From Octopus sinensis (lineage: Eukaryota), in NCBI RefSeq assembly GCF_006345805.1, contig NC_043005.1:69936001-70000000 (forward strand): a stretch of DNA of 64,000 nt, in the 5' to 3' direction. The notes under the pieces are model-generated. The model searched no databases and was not told the DNA's origin. It saw only the letters and a program-made list of their open reading frames with translations. The position numbers and the translations under genes are program-made. Of the stretch, positions 10,092-61,755 are shown one piece after another (the stretch's first letter is position 1; the number at the start of each line of letters is the position of its first letter).

Positions 10092-10324
10092 TCGGCGAGC
10101 TGGCAGAATCGTTAGCACGCCGGGCGGAATGCTTAGCAGTATTTCGTCTGTCGCTACGTTCTGAGTTCAAATTCCGCCGGGGTCGACTTTGCCTTTCAGC
10201 CTTTCGGGGTCGATTAAATAATTACCAGTTACGCACTGGGGTAGATATAATCGACTTAATCTCTTTGTCTGTCCTTGTTTGTCCCTTCTGGGTTTAGCTC
10301 CTTGTGGGTAGTAAAGAAATAGGT
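10092..10324 (+). mobile_element. Octopus-type tRNA-derived SINE (family B), full length
   Basis: GGCGAGCTGGCAGAATCGTTAGC (A-box region), GAGTTCAAATTCC (B box), core GGTCGACTTTGCCTTTCA.CCTTTCGGGGTCGAT; at least 8 related copies in the window. Confidence 0.9.
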
Positions 10325-18024: not shown

Positions 18025-18445
18025 TGGCACAAGGCCAGCAATTTTGGAGAGCGGATAAATTGATTATATCAACCCCGGTGTTTCACCGGTATATATCTTA
18101 TTGACCCCCACGAAGGGATGGAAAAATAGTCGACGAAAAGTGAAATTTGAACACATAATGCAGAAAGGAACGAAATGCTGCTAAGCATTTCACCCGACAT
18201 GCTAACGATTCTTATTTCTTTACTATCCATAAGGGGCTACACACAGAGCGGACAAACAAGGACAGACAATGGGATTAAGTCAATTATATCGACCCCAGTG
18301 CGTAACTGGTACTTATTTAATTGACCCCGAAAGGATGAAAGGTGAAGTCGACCTCGGCGGAATTTGAACTCAGAACGGAACGGCAGACGAAATACCGCTA
18401 CGCCTTTCGCCCGGCGTGCTAACGATTCTACCAACTCGTGGCCTA
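18025..18445 (-). mobile_element. Two tandem family B SINEs (older 18025-18211, younger 18212-18445)
   Basis: Two copies of CCCCGAAAGGATGAAA...GTCGAC...GAATTTGAAC...GCTAACGATTCT. Confidence 0.85.
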
Positions 18446-23000: not shown

Positions 23001-24148
23001 GTAAATGCTTGCAAAAAGAATTATGAATATGTTAGTAATTATGGGAATGGTAATATTAAGATTAACATCAACGTGGCTAAAATAAGGGCAAAATCAAAGC
23101 ATAATATCTGGGATAAGTAAACTCATATCTCAAATACCTACAAATATTTCTGAAAATTTTTTCGCAGCACTTCATAGTTAATTCCCATCATATCGTTAAT
23201 ATGGAATAGTATTTAATCGTCATACAATTAAATGTACATATTCATGCAACAGGATTTTGAGCGAAATTATTGTATCACATGAAAAAAATGAGACAGTACG
23301 GCAACTTGAATTTAGTAAATCATAATACGAATGTTAAGGTGAATTGTGCGAATAGCTATATTGACAATTACCTTGAAGTCAGTAGTATTCATGGAGATGG
23401 TAATGATAATACAGTTAACAACAGCAAAGCAATAACAGGGTCGACGACGACGACAACGACAAGGGCGCGGGCGACGACGACGATGATAATGATGACGACT
23501 ATGTTAAGGATGTTAAAAATAATAGTATTATAAAATTTAGGCATTCACTGCTAGTCTAGGGAACGAAATAAAAATAATTTTGACACTTCAAAATTCAAAT
23601 GTATCGACTTGCATCGGAGAAATTCTGAATGCTCTCGTATATCAACTAATAACATTGATAATAACCCAGGTAATAATCTGGTTTTAACGTTTAGCTCTAA
23701 TAATTGGTTAGCACCATTCTTAATCGTAATTACAACAAAGGCAGTAATAAACGCCTTTAATATTATAGAATCTAACTAAAAATCCGGTAACAGCTGGAGA
23801 TACTGTGCCACGGATTTTAAATATATTCATATCGTCATCTTTGTTTAAATTAAGGAGAAATATTAAACGTACTAATTTAGTGAATCCATCTGGAATTTGA
23901 AAAACCAGAATATTAATTATAATAATGATATATGAAACTAATAGGCGAATGAATAATTTGTTTAAAGAAATTATGTTTCGATGCCAGATTACGATGGTAA
24001 TCTAATATATATAAATGCCTTAACTGTTACAAGTTCCATGGGATACCTGTATTATATAAATTCTATGATGAGAGATTCATTACCTTCCAGCCTTGAGATG
24101 ATATTCCAAATCCCCTCAATATCTTGTTAGTAATCCCCATATATATAT

Positions 24149-27254: not shown

Positions 27255-27585
27255 TGGACGTATAGCAAAAGTCTCAGAGAAGGCCAGCAGAATATTAGAG
27301 ATTACTTTCTCTGTACGACATCGGAATATAGCAGCAAAATTGAAAGCTGAACTAAACCACTACCTTGCGAAAACTGTCAAGGTTTACTTCTCGTCTTGAG
27401 CTTCTAAAACCCTGAACAATATGGGAAATATGTTACTACTGAACTTCACACTTCGCACAACAGTGGGAAAGGATCACTAGCCTGCTACAAGTAGCTTGTG
27501 TGAAAATGGAGCAATATAAGTTTTTCACACATTTCCCAACGTAAAGGACGCATTTAACTGGAAACAGCCCAAAGAAGCAGTCAAA
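27255..27585 (+). mobile_element. Tc1-like transposase N-terminal fragment
   Basis: KVSEKASRILEITFSVRHRNIAAKLKAELNHYLAKTV parallels the HTH region of the 24.1-25.0 kb element. Confidence 0.55.
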
Positions 27586-27643
27586 GTGTCCCAGGAAATA
27601 ATCCCGGTTTCCCGGGATAGTAAAACTTATTTAGTAGAAAATA

Positions 27644-27861
27644 CTCTCTTCTACTCTAGGCACACGGCCCGAAATTTTTTGGGAGGTAGGTCTAGTCGAT
27701 TAGATTGACCCCTGTACGCAACTGGTATTTAATTTGTTGACCCCGAAAGGATGAAAAGGCAAGTCGAACTCGGCGGAATTTCAACTAAGAACGCAAAGAC
27801 AGACGAAACACCGCTCGGCATTACGCTTGGCGTGTTAACTTTCCTGTCAGCTCGCCACCTA
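27644..27861 (-). mobile_element. Family B SINE with 15-bp target-site duplication
   Basis: SINE body flanked by ATTTAGTAGAAAATA at 27629-27643 and 27862-27876. Confidence 0.9.
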
Positions 27862-27935
27862 ATTTAGTAGAAAATATTAAAATATAAAAAGAGATGAACG
27901 CTCGAGTTGTTGTTAATCTCTGTATATTATGAACT

Positions 27936-28019
27936 CCTCTACATACGTTTCGACAGGTGCATTCCAAAATGTCTGGCGGAATAAATAATGGGCACCAGTG
28001 CACCAATCTATTCAGGAGG
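27936..28019 (-). ncRNA. Type I hammerhead ribozyme motif (G8U variant)
   Basis: Minus: CCTC-CTGAATA-GATTGGTGCA...TGCACCTGTC-GAAAC-GTAT-GTA-GAGG; helices I, II and III all form. Confidence 0.65.
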
Positions 28020-28380
28020 TTTATGATAACAAGCTCATCAAATAAGCATGTTAACCCAGAAAGAAAGTCCTACAAAATGTAAAGTATTCATAATTATATG
28101 GAAACAGGCGTTCACACTCAAACATGTGGCGTATCAATATAAACATTATATCAATATAAACATTATATACATACAAAAACACAAACGTATACTAACACAT
28201 ACATAAACACTCATCAAAATACAAAAACTTACACATATATACATATATATATATACACACTTTTTAAATTCTACATAAAACGTTATATATATGTGTGTGT
28301 AAGTGTGTGTGTGGTGTGTGTGTGTGTGTGTATGTGAATAAATAAATGGAGTTTAACGCAGGTATAAATCAAATATTTTT

Positions 28381-28466
28381 ACTTTCGACACATGTTTCGA
28401 AAAGTGCACTGATACTATTCAAAAGAATAAACGGTATATACAATGCAATCTTTTCTTCAGGAAAGT
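28381..28466 (-). ncRNA. Type I hammerhead ribozyme motif, catalytic core intact
   Basis: Minus: ACTTTC-CTGAAGA-AAAGATTGCATTG...CAGTGCACTTTTC-GAAAC-ATGT-GTC-GAAAGT; 11 of 13 helix II pairs form; GUC cleavage triplet. Confidence 0.75.
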
Positions 28467-28522
28467 GAAAAAAAGAAACTCGTCAATTAGACGTTTTAGG
28501 AAAAGATGATGGATTAAATGAC

Positions 28523-28612
28523 TTACTTTCCTGAAGGGAAGATTTCATTGTTTATACTATTTATTCTTTCGAATAATATCAGTGGAATTTTCGAAACATG
28601 TATCGAAAGTAA
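28523..28612 (+). ncRNA. Type I hammerhead ribozyme motif (inverted partner copy, A9G)
   Basis: TTACTTTC-CTGAAGG-GAAGATTTCATTG...CAGTGGAATTTTC (13 of 13 pairs including G-U)-GAAAC-ATGT-ATC-GAAAGTAA. Confidence 0.7.
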
Positions 28613-30241
28613 AAATATTTGATTTATATCTGCTTTAAACTCCATTTATTTATTCATATTATACAAATATTCCACTTAAACACGAAGTTTCTGCCTTTAT
28701 AAACAAGGAGTTACAATCTCTTTACTTATGAGATTTTTTGCTACCCTGGTAACTATTTATTTATTTTTTCCGTGTTAATTGTTAACAAGGTAAAAATACA
28801 CTCATCTATATATATATATATATATATATATGCATACACACACACCTATATATATAAAAAATATTTAATATTTCTACTAAATATGTCTCACTATCCCGAG
28901 ATTATTTCCTGGGACATTTAAGCAACATTTAGCTATATTGTATTTGTTCCCTTAGATTTCTCCTATTAATTGTAAACTCTCATTACACCAGGCTTTATTT
29001 GAATGAACCTGCAAATGGAGATCTTTAATGTCAATGCCTCTTTCAAGGACATACCTATTCTTCCAAGAAACGTATGTCTGAAACAGCACACCATTAAGAC
29101 CAATTCCTTCATTAATCAGAATAGATGACAAGCTTTCTGTTTGGATAATAAGGATATCGAAACATCATCAAACCATTGTAATTCGGGGTTTAGGAAAGTT
29201 TTCAAATAAAAAAAACAACCCTCCCACTAACCAAGCTTAAAAATACTTTGAAGGATACCTCTGAACTATAGCAAAGAATGTGAAGTTCCATAGCATTGTG
29301 ATTAATCTATATTTTGTATCTTTTCATTTGTCTTGCTCGCTTACTTTGTGGCGTTTGCTAAATTTTCTTGAGAACATTCCATTCCTAGTGGTAAGACCAT
29401 AGCGGATCTCCTTCTAGCATAATGGATATCCACTTACAGGTCATTCCACTTATATATATATCATACGTTATATAAATCTATTAATGAGTATGTTTTTCTT
29501 TTATATAATTTCAATTATGCTTTAGACGAAATTCTTATGATGTATTTTAAAAATACGTATTGTCCAAATAGATATATATTGGAATATTTTATTTTACTTT
29601 ATGAAGTATGTTAAGTTTTATATTCTCTCGGGTTTTGAAAACACATCATATACTATTGAAATCTTCAAATTTATTCAGAGAGATATTCACCATATTCTGT
29701 AACAGAGGTGTTTGAATTCTATTTGTAACAAATTACTTCAGATTATTTCCTAGAGACTGAATCTCTTATTGACTCACATTGTATATAATCATCTTATGTG
29801 TGCACTGCTAATTAACTAGGGCCAATTTCGCCTCAAGGATGAGCTTAATTTCATCGCGAATTTCTCAGCATTATTGCAGCGTTAATAAATTTATAATTGG
29901 CAATATAGTTATCCCCTACTGCGATGTAATCTAATCATAAACAAATATTCTCGCTATCCAAACATTTATTACAATGTGTTTGTATTGGAGCAAACGGGAA
30001 ATCGGAAGAAACTAAAAAATTGCAATGCCTCTATCCTGGGATTCAATGTGGTTACAGTTTCCTCTGTCGGATTCGTCCATTGAATACAAAAACTCTTGTC
30101 ATGCAAAGGGAAAGAGGGGAATGTTCAGAAGACAAATGTGATTTTCTCGTAGTCTCCATCTCGTTAATCAACAGTTCACTTTTTGTGGAACAACTAAGGT
30201 ATTGCCCAATTTTATAAGAAATTTTTCAGTTAATACATTAA

Positions 30242-30642
30242 TCTTTATATATAAATGTGAGATTGTGTGAGAGTCTGTCTCCTACGATTTAGATTCCTAA
30301 CTACTCCCACATTTTGCGGTGCAGTTTAACCAAAACCGGGTATCTTATAGTCGTGATTCATATCGAGCCCTTCTGGGTATTATCGCGCGTCTACGATGAG
30401 TCTACGATTAAAAAAAAAATTACCATGGTTTTTTTCCATGTTAATGCATTTTTTCGCTATTATATAAGGGAGGTAACTCTCTAAAAATGTCTAAGATGAG
30501 TCAACGATTTAAAAAAAAAATTACCATAATTTTTTTCCATTTTTAATGCATTGTTTTTGCTATTTTTTGGCTATAACTCTCTAAAAATGCTTATATAGTT
30601 ATTTCCCTTACAAACCCGAGCAACGCCGGGCGATACTGCTAG
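30242..30642 (+). mobile_element. Non-autonomous Helitron
   Basis: 5' TC, 3' CTAG, inserted between A and T with no TSD; subterminal hairpin CCCG-AGCAACGC-CGGG (30615-30630); internal ~100-bp direct duplication. Confidence 0.88.
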
Positions 30643-31065
30643 TAATAAATATGAAGGAAATGTTTAGTTGAAACTATATTCTTGTATGGATTTTTAGGTT
30701 TTGCTCAATCAACTGCGACCATGTTTAGGCAAAAATTGAAGGTTTTTCACAGATACTATTGTTATGTCGCACGTTCGGATAACCTCTGCTCAACTCTCGA
30801 CTCTAATCTTCTCCTTGTATATCTACGTATGGGGCTAGTCTACTTCATCGCCTGGGGGCGTCGACACAACAACTATTAATATGTTTCGGGACATGACATT
30901 TTATAGGAAATCTTATTTATCAGCATCAGCATAAAAACAAAATAGAAACACACAAGGAGACGAACATACAACTTCAAACATATATATATGTACGCAGGTA
31001 ACTACAGCCATACAAACATATATGTATATACGTTGATATATGTATGTGTGTGTGTATGTATATGC

Positions 31066-61542: not shown

Positions 61543-61546
61543 TAAA

Positions 61547-61755
61547 GGCGGTGAACTGGCAGAATCGTTTGGAAGCCGGGTGAAATGCTTAGCGGTATTT
61601 CGCCCGTCGCTACGTCATCAGTTCAAATTCCGCCGAGCTCAAATTTGCCTTTCATCCTTTCGAATTCGATAAATTAAGTACCTGTCGAGTACTGCGGTTG
61701 ATGTAATTGACTGTCCCCTGCCCATGAAATACAACCCGTGTGCCTATAGTAGAAA
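61547..61755 (+). mobile_element. Family B SINE, full length
   Basis: GGCGGTGAACTGGCAGAATCGTT...GTTCAAATTCCGCCGAG...TTTGCCTTTCATCCTTTCG...TGTGCCTATAGTAGAAA. Confidence 0.88.

What the first reader, a model, noticed from the sequence alone, without database searches (positions are those of the whole stretch)
27587..28916. Nested cluster of three type I hammerhead ribozymes inside inverted repeats
Seen: three motifs with hammerhead topology (helix I - CUGANGA - long helix II - GAAAC - 4-nt loop - GUH - helix I) at 27936-28019 (-), 28381-28466 (-) and 28523-28612 (+). The whole block is bracketed by inverted copies of TGTCCCAGGAAATAAT...GATAGT...ATTTAGTAGAAA (27587-27643 and 28862-28916). Established: Penelope-like retroelements and metazoan retrozymes carry type I hammerheads with a very short helix III in pseudo-LTRs that often occur inverted. 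Inference: two different non-coding Penelope/retrozyme families, plus a SINE, are nested here. I found no RT or GIY-YIG ORF, so they would be mobilised in trans.
Basis: partly seen in the sequence, partly recalled or inferred. Interest (0 to 1): 0.75.

Follow-up and report, generated by a model that had tools for sequence, protein, structure and literature searches.

The report
Nested Penelope retrotransposon ends with hammerheads
The three hammerhead-shaped RNA motifs are real but each carries a damaging change, and they are the cut-short, back-to-back ends of two protein-coding Penelope-like jumping-gene families, likely nested one inside the other, not non-coding ribozyme elements; the layout is known, though the younger family's nuclease lacks the cysteine motif thought to aim such elements at TA repeats.

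Summary
The motifs and outer inverted arms are at the stated places, but only HH2 has CUGANGA; HH1 is G8U, HH3 is A9G plus a broken 15.2-16.2 pair, HH2 has lost G10.1-C11.1. HH2+HH3 are a head-to-head pair of 5'-truncated pLTRs of a young family (A) whose full copies read pLTR - RT+GIY-YIG ORF - pLTR. A SINE with a 15-bp target duplication interrupts B. So 'non-coding, mobilised in trans' is wrong; the layout is the published Penelope inverted-pLTR-plus-tail structure, closest to the Hydra clade. Deviations: 55-57 nt helix II arm; 151-nt tail (published 30-40), with one long and one short end in 20 of 21 inverted pairs; family A lacks the CxCx5C linker (36 of 36 copies; four Cys in 35 of 35 aligned homologs) yet 72 of 80 3' ends abut (TA)n. 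Cleavage untested. This scan noted the same reading, and the linker loss, before on other DNA.

The parts
27584..27643 (-).
   Evidence: matches uninterrupted copy L032 positions 370-419, 79%
27646..27860 (-). SINE inserted in the B tail; 15-bp target-site duplication at 27629-27643 and 27862-27876
   Evidence: TSD found twice, 3 more copies in the window at 71-82%; tRNA-like A/B boxes read by eye, ARAGORN 0 genes; family name not tested
27859..28257 (-). Family B pLTR, left 5'-truncated copy (3' UTR, hammerhead, short end near 27886, start of tail)
   Evidence: 85.5% over 400 nt to L032; 46 matches at 69-87% in the genome
27936..28019 (-). HH1, family B hammerhead, 57-nt helix II arm, predicted cut after 27940; G8U in the core
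28258..28330 (.). TA/TG microsatellite, left flank of the family A insertion
   Evidence: sequence
28332..28515 (-). Family A pLTR, 5'-truncated, short 3' end (reference 2514-2699)
   Evidence: 88% to natural copy L062
28381..28466 (-). HH2, family A hammerhead, 55-nt arm, predicted cut after 28387; core intact, G10.1A
28516..28524 (.). 9-nt junction between the head-to-head family A copies
28525..28809 (+). Family A pLTR, 5'-truncated, long 3' end with the ~150-nt tail (reference 2564-2848), then (TA)n
   Evidence: 89% to L062
28523..28612 (+). HH3, family A hammerhead, predicted cut after 28604; A9G and G16.2A
28864..28979 (+).
   Evidence: 86% to L032 363-479
28980..29300 (+). 5' leader and decayed start of the PLE ORF (stops, frameshift); the rest of the ORF is not found
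   Evidence: tblastn 48%, E 6e-13; 9 related ORF starts elsewhere at 67-78%

Best explanation
The block holds truncated, head-to-head ends of two related endonuclease-bearing Penelope-like retrotransposon families and a SINE, likely laid down in three events: an old family B insertion (inverted pLTR copy, then tail, leader and ORF start), a SINE into its tail, and a younger family A inverted pair into the TA-rich centre. Each family encodes its own reverse transcriptase and GIY-YIG nuclease (shown for A; decayed ORFs for B). The protein would nick TA-rich DNA and start reverse transcription at two fixed internal sites of its RNA, 50 and 201 nt downstream of the hammerhead cut site in family A, one for each DNA strand; early termination would give two copies whose 5' ends meet, one with and one without the 151-nt tail. 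The hammerhead lies upstream of both start sites and is copied passively. At family level it is likely a weak, dimer- or protein-dependent ribozyme (2-bp helix III, self-complementary loop); insertion likely uses uncut or re-ligated RNA. The three window copies are likely dead.
For: Full elements: L061 (TA)n-pLTR-ORF-pLTR-(TA)n and L062 inverted copy-pLTR-ORF-pLTR; ORF has RIRW, DKT, YRDD, a GIY-YIG-type YQC..YIG and CLLC-E-N-CKH; model pLDDT 75, top fold matches are reverse transcriptases incl. telomerases. 80 distinct family A 3' ends: 39 short, 38 long, 3 other; 72 of 80 have (TA)4 within 20 nt vs 7% of window positions; 21 head-to-head pairs: 20 long+short, 1 long+near-short, 0 alike; the window pair follows the rule. 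5' ends of ORF-joined upstream pLTRs: 27 of 30 loci have one, 24 distinct, 17 begin upstream of the cut site, 7 downstream, 0 within 5 nt of it. Hammerhead intact in 27 of 35 copies chosen by nuclease similarity and 12 of 23 chosen by ORF start, U4C allowed. Family B: 88.9% of cells paired vs 30-42% for slid partners, two compensatory pairs between subfamilies (helix I CG 10/UA 15; helix II GC 11/AU 14). Loop III self-duplex -6 to -7 kcal/mol. The layout is described in PMC8557442 and PMC3846280, two-site internal initiation and dispensable hammerhead cleavage in PMC11167929.
Against: No cleavage or expression data. B covariation is about two events between two subfamilies; 327 of 500 shuffles reach the same number of two-sided pairs. 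Only 11 of 33 solitary 5' ends abut (TA)4 (background 10%), so part of the 3' TA could be expansion from the element's own TA-ended 3' end. The loci are the best-scoring 30 per search, not a random sample. The two B halves cannot be proved to be one event: the right element's 3' part is gone and the left ends mid-tail. No target duplication is visible for A or B. Pfam gives no RT or GIY-YIG hit for the family A protein itself.
Confidence: 0.9

Rival explanations
1. The family assignments hold, but the two family B halves are independent insertions into one microsatellite, so the outer inverted repeat is a coincidence of a TA hotspot rather than one inverted insertion.
For: Arms only 77% alike in their overlap; the left copy ends 57 nt into the tail, at neither standard end; TA tracts attract repeated insertions.
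Against: Head-to-head orientation with an inverted copy upstream of tail-leader-ORF is seen in L062, L075 and several of L108-L137; each arm is 79-86% to L032, so 77% between arms fits equal age.
Confidence: 0.2
2. Non-autonomous, non-coding retrozymes: short hammerhead units amplified through circular RNA and mobilised in trans.
For: ORF-less short copies dominate: 1353 candidates for the hammerhead vs 122 for the ORF start (not copy numbers); bioRxiv 10.64898/2026.07.22.740005 derives retrozymes from pLTRs.
Against: 5' ends are scattered through the ORF as in ordinary truncation; the nuclease region is about as abundant (1152 candidates); no tandem hammerhead arrays in the loci aligned; ORF start in the window.
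Confidence: 0.04
3. The cluster is a host-co-opted RNA device (three ribozymes cutting a host transcript).
For: Three motifs within 700 nt on both strands.
Against: 0 of 3 window copies are intact; a read-through transcript of the A pair is predicted to form an inter-arm hairpin of -162 to -169 kcal/mol that pairs the motifs away; copies are more decayed than the family average (88-89% vs mostly 92-97%).
Confidence: 0.02

Closest known systems
Hydra clade of C-terminal EN+ Penelope-like elements, incl. Hydra-1_Obim of Octopus bimaculoides (Craig et al. 2021, PMC8557442; section 11, passages and supplementary tables S1/S2 seen)
   Same: Short (<3 kb) single-ORF unit, RW(K) and DKT motifs, no CCHH, CxxC and CxH around the conserved E and N, (TA)n flanks, type I hammerhead near the 3' end.
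   Different: Family A has none of the four linker cysteines and RWL for RWK; helix II arm 55-57 nt vs 3-7 bp stems with 3-10 nt loops in the published Hydra table; hammerhead sequence unlike the listed Hydra-1_Obim motif (by eye).
Inverted pLTR plus optional tail of EN+ PLEs (PMC8557442 Fig. 2 legend; Arkhipova et al. 2013, PMC3846280, passages seen)
   Same: Inverted 5'-truncated copy next to the upstream pLTR; tail on one end only.
   Different: Tail 151 nt (A) and about 115 nt (B) vs 30-40 nt; the tail ends before the ORF start rather than inside the ORF.
Poseidon PAc of Anolis (Frangieh et al. 2024, PMC11167929; parts 1-2 of 4 read)
   Same: Two internal RT start sites define the tail; AT-rich targets; hammerhead cleavage not needed for insertion in vitro.
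   Different: PAc's sites are adjacent and inside the ORF and not homologous to the target; here they are 151 nt apart in the UTR and each ends in 3-4 nt of TA that could pair with (TA)n.
PLE minimal hammerheads (Cervera and de la Pena 2014, PMC4209133; parts 1-2 of 4 read)
   Same: Type I, short palindromic helix III, G10.1-C11.1, pairs on opposite strands 100-700 bp apart, low predicted monomer activity.
   Different: Helix II arm far longer than the 7-8 bp reported; missed by Rfam models.
Non-LTR retrozymes (bioRxiv 10.64898/2026.07.22.740005; part 1 of 5 read)
   Same: Type I hammerhead related to pLTRs.
   Different: Retrozymes are ORF-less tandem arrays; these are ends of ORF-bearing elements.

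Membership tests
EN+ Penelope-like element | Single ORF with RT and C-terminal GIY-YIG nuclease | tested here: met
   Family A: L061 1870-4221, 785 codons with 2 stops; RT fold matches; nuclease by motif and by alignment to homologs, of which 1 of 36 has a Pfam GIY-YIG hit. Family B: decayed ORFs only.
EN+ Penelope-like element | pLTRs from partial tandems, inverted 5'-truncated copy, tail at one end | tested here: met
   L061, L062; 21 pairs
EN+ Penelope-like element | Hammerhead motif in the pLTR | tested here: met
   (family level)
Hydra clade | RWK and DKT motifs | tested here: met
   RIRWL (K to L) and DKT in family A; RWQ and DKT in B-type ORFs
Hydra clade | No CCHH; CxxC and CxH beside conserved E and N | tested here: met
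   CLLC-NSE...VN...CKH in L011, L017, L025, L062; L061 has one C to Y, so the regex on it failed
Hydra clade | CxCx5C linker before the nuclease | tested here: not met
   Family A: 0 of 36 translated copies vs four Cys in 35 of 35 aligned homologs and 99 of 100 by regex. Family A is therefore filed as Hydra-like, not as a strict member.
Hydra clade | CxCx5C linker in family B | tested here: inconclusive
   L075 (B2-linked) keeps 3 of 4 Cys; L043 keeps 4 but its link to B is only same-strand adjacency
Hydra clade | Insertion into (TA)n | tested here: met
   72 of 80 3' ends; 11 of 33 solitary 5' ends
Hydra clade | Phylogenetic placement with published Hydra families | not tested
Type I hammerhead ribozyme | C3-G8, A9, G10.1-C11.1, GAA, A15.1-U16.1, H17 intact | tested here: not met
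   0 of 3 window copies; met in 27 of 35 family A copies
Type I hammerhead ribozyme | Self-cleavage | not testable with these tools
   needs in vitro assay
Non-LTR retrozyme | ORF-less tandem units each with a hammerhead | tested here: not met

The most novel reading that the evidence does not exclude
Family A is a recently active Penelope-like element that lost the whole cysteine linker yet still lands in (TA)n, because its two RT start sites, 151 nt apart, each end in TA and pair with the nicked target; every inverted insertion uses both sites once, one per strand. Targeting would then be RNA-guided microhomology, not zinc-finger reading, and the family would be a natural test of the linker hypothesis.
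Probability: 0.3. Interest if true: 0.55.

Novelty: new variant of a known kind. Interest (0 to 1): 0.27.

Why it matters
The locus itself is ordinary decayed repeat DNA. The family data bear on two open points in Penelope biology: the proposed role of the cysteine linker in (TA)n targeting (PMC8557442 calls the Hydra data support for it; family A is a counter-example) and how inverted insertions form (the near-strict long+short rule and the absence of ends at the cut site favour two-site priming on uncut RNA). Long-arm hammerheads like these are missed by Rfam, so ribozyme counts in cephalopods are likely too low.

Tried and rejected
Rfam: no hammerhead match. Pfam and PDB sequence search on the single family A protein: nothing meaningful; the alignment profile reached a retron RT at E 0.009. 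Expression: no RNA holder listed; the four runs laid were contigs only, no ends could be read, and the ORF-to-pLTR joint is also genomic, so nothing is concluded on transcription or circles. A genome-wide pattern count of intact cores was not possible, so no copy number of intact ribozymes is given. A regex count of cores returned nothing through a scripting error and was replaced by alignment. A stricter arm descriptor found only HH3. Idea that upstream pLTRs start at the ribozyme cut: rejected, 0 of 24. My first label, Neptune clade, was dropped after reading the Hydra definition. An apparent RT remnant left of 27584 seen by eye was not supported by tblastn. A bulged tail hairpin shared by A and B, suggested by earlier notes, was not evident from single-sequence folds; only a short shared motif was seen. 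Five rows with large deletions were left out of alignment A1 (29 of 34). Literature: searches 'Penelope+hammerhead', 'Nematis+Neptune+Penelope', 'octopus+Penelope+hammerhead' gave no paper on these families; Repbase/Dfam could not be checked. SINE family name: search listing only, not resolved.

Full report
Setting. The window is G000:C9:69936001-70000000 of a 2.72-Gb animal genome; the nearest named proteins of the element come from Octopus and Argonauta, so it is likely an octopus.

Observation. The three motifs lie where stated. One loosened descriptor returns exactly them in the window and 1 hit in 100 dinucleotide shuffles. Against their families each has a defect: HH1 G8U (shared by 2 of 29 B copies), HH2 G10.1A, HH3 A9G and G16.2A. 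G8 changes abolish cleavage in the Anolis element (PMC11167929) and G10.1-C11.1 is highly conserved (PMC4209133). Rfam has no hammerhead match. The outer arms are 77% alike.

Family A (HH2, HH3). HH2 gives 1353 first-look candidates, best copies 94-96%; the nuclease region gives 1152, best copies 99% alike; the ORF start 122. These are not copy numbers. L061 reads (TA)n-pLTR-ORF-pLTR-(TA)n, and L062 adds an inverted upstream copy. The ORF is 785 codons with two stops in L061. Its model (pLDDT 75, 36-row alignment) matches reverse transcriptases including telomerases. Pfam has no useful hit on it. On natural copy L062 the unit is 2848 nt, the predicted cut follows 2647, and 3' ends fall at 2697 or 2848. 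Of 80 distinct ends, 39 are short, 38 long, 3 other; 72 have (TA)4 within 20 nt against 7% of window positions; of 21 head-to-head pairs 20 are long+short, 1 long+near-short, none alike. The window pair is 2514-2699 on minus and 2564-2848 on plus with a 9-nt junction. The hammerhead is intact in 27 of 35 nuclease-selected and 12 of 23 ORF-start-selected copies when U4C is allowed.

Family B (HH1, outer arms). 46 matches at 69-87% apart from the window itself at 100% fall into two subfamilies. Against uninterrupted copy L032, 27859-28257 is the pLTR body, 27584-27641 continues it into the tail, and 28864-28979 is the whole tail of about 115 nt. Between the left pieces is a SINE, 27646-27860, with a 15-bp duplication of B sequence. 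The right tail runs into a leader and a decayed ORF start, 29012-29242, 48% to the family A protein, E 6e-13; B-type pLTR or tail precedes related ORF starts on the same strand in 4 of 9 other loci (L069, L070, L074, L075), L077 has only an inverted B pLTR, L073 an A-like one. In 29 B hammerheads 88.9% of cells pair (30-42% when slid), with two compensatory pairs; these are about two events, and the pair-count control is not exceeded.

Order of events (inferred). B is oldest; the SINE duplicates B sequence, so it came later; A is younger by divergence and sits in the microsatellite between the B halves. Whether the B halves are one event cannot be shown here.

Mechanism. Shown: two fixed 3' ends, one of each per inverted pair, TA at 3' flanks, scattered 5' ends. 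All standard 3' ends lie 50 or 201 nt past the cut site, and 17 of 24 distinct upstream pLTRs extend 5' of it, none starting within 5 nt. Inferred: the template is uncut or re-ligated RNA; each target strand primes at one internal site, as PMC11167929 showed in vitro for a Poseidon element with adjacent sites. The 2-bp helix III with a self-complementary loop (-6 to -7 kcal/mol) fits dimer-dependent, weak cleavage as in PMC4209133. In the window a read-through RNA would fold arm on arm. Cleavage and expression are untested.

Comparison. Motifs match the Hydra clade (PMC8557442 section 11), which already lists an octopus family, Hydra-1_Obim, with a short-armed hammerhead and the linker (supplement). 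Family A fails one defining feature: 36 of 36 translated copies lack the cysteine linker, whereas all four cysteines are present in 35 of 35 aligned homologs and 99 of 100 homologs with a readable nuclease start (120 examined). Older octopus relatives keep three or four. It is filed as a Hydra-like EN+ PLE variant. Caveat on targeting: only 11 of 33 solitary 5' ends abut TA (background 10%). Tails of 151 and about 115 nt exceed the 30-40 nt in print; helix II arms of 55-57 nt exceed the published Hydra motifs. Hammerhead numbering and the A/B-box reading of the SINE are from my own knowledge. Supplements of the bioRxiv preprint were not seen; it covers four invertebrates that I did not check.

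Earlier notes of this scan reached the same reading in this and other genomes, and one noted the linker loss; they are unreviewed and I had reached these points before reading them (notes 27, 47).

Verdict. Real motifs, wrong on 'non-coding, in trans'; a known layout with three modest family-level deviations. Interest 0.27.

Noticed in passing
window 23131-23304 (+): Another decayed PLE ORF fragment (16 of 40 homolog queries hit, best E 1.6e-6).
   Followed up: partly
window 10094-10256, 18278-18423, 61546-61754: Three more copies of the same SINE, 71-82%.
   Followed up: partly
window about 30240-30645: A ~400-nt repeat with internal 100-nt duplication and a short GC hairpin before a CTAGT-like end, also seen beside TA tracts in L004 and interrupting family A in L016; resembles a non-autonomous Helitron-type element (recalled, not tested).
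   Followed up: no
window 28739-28751 and 28932-28942; L032, L069-L075 tails: A short GCTACC-TG-TAA-like motif is shared by the otherwise different A and B tails, about 50-70 nt before the long end; a candidate protein-binding or start signal.
   Followed up: partly
family A loci L079-L137: Core variants segregate within the young family: U4C in 14 of 35 and 11 of 23 copies; C11.1U with H17=A in 7 of 23.
   Followed up: partly
L073:950-1500: An older element with an A-like hammerhead followed by an A-like and then a B-like tail before its ORF, a possible chimera or intermediate.
   Followed up: no
L135, L093: Inverted partners that consist of the tail alone (reference 2697-2848 and 2708-2848), like the tail-only start of the window's right B copy.
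   Followed up: partly
L066:8742-9500 (-): A different PLE with a CX4CxxC linker and CxxC before YIG (Neptune-like by motif) next to a family A copy.
   Followed up: no
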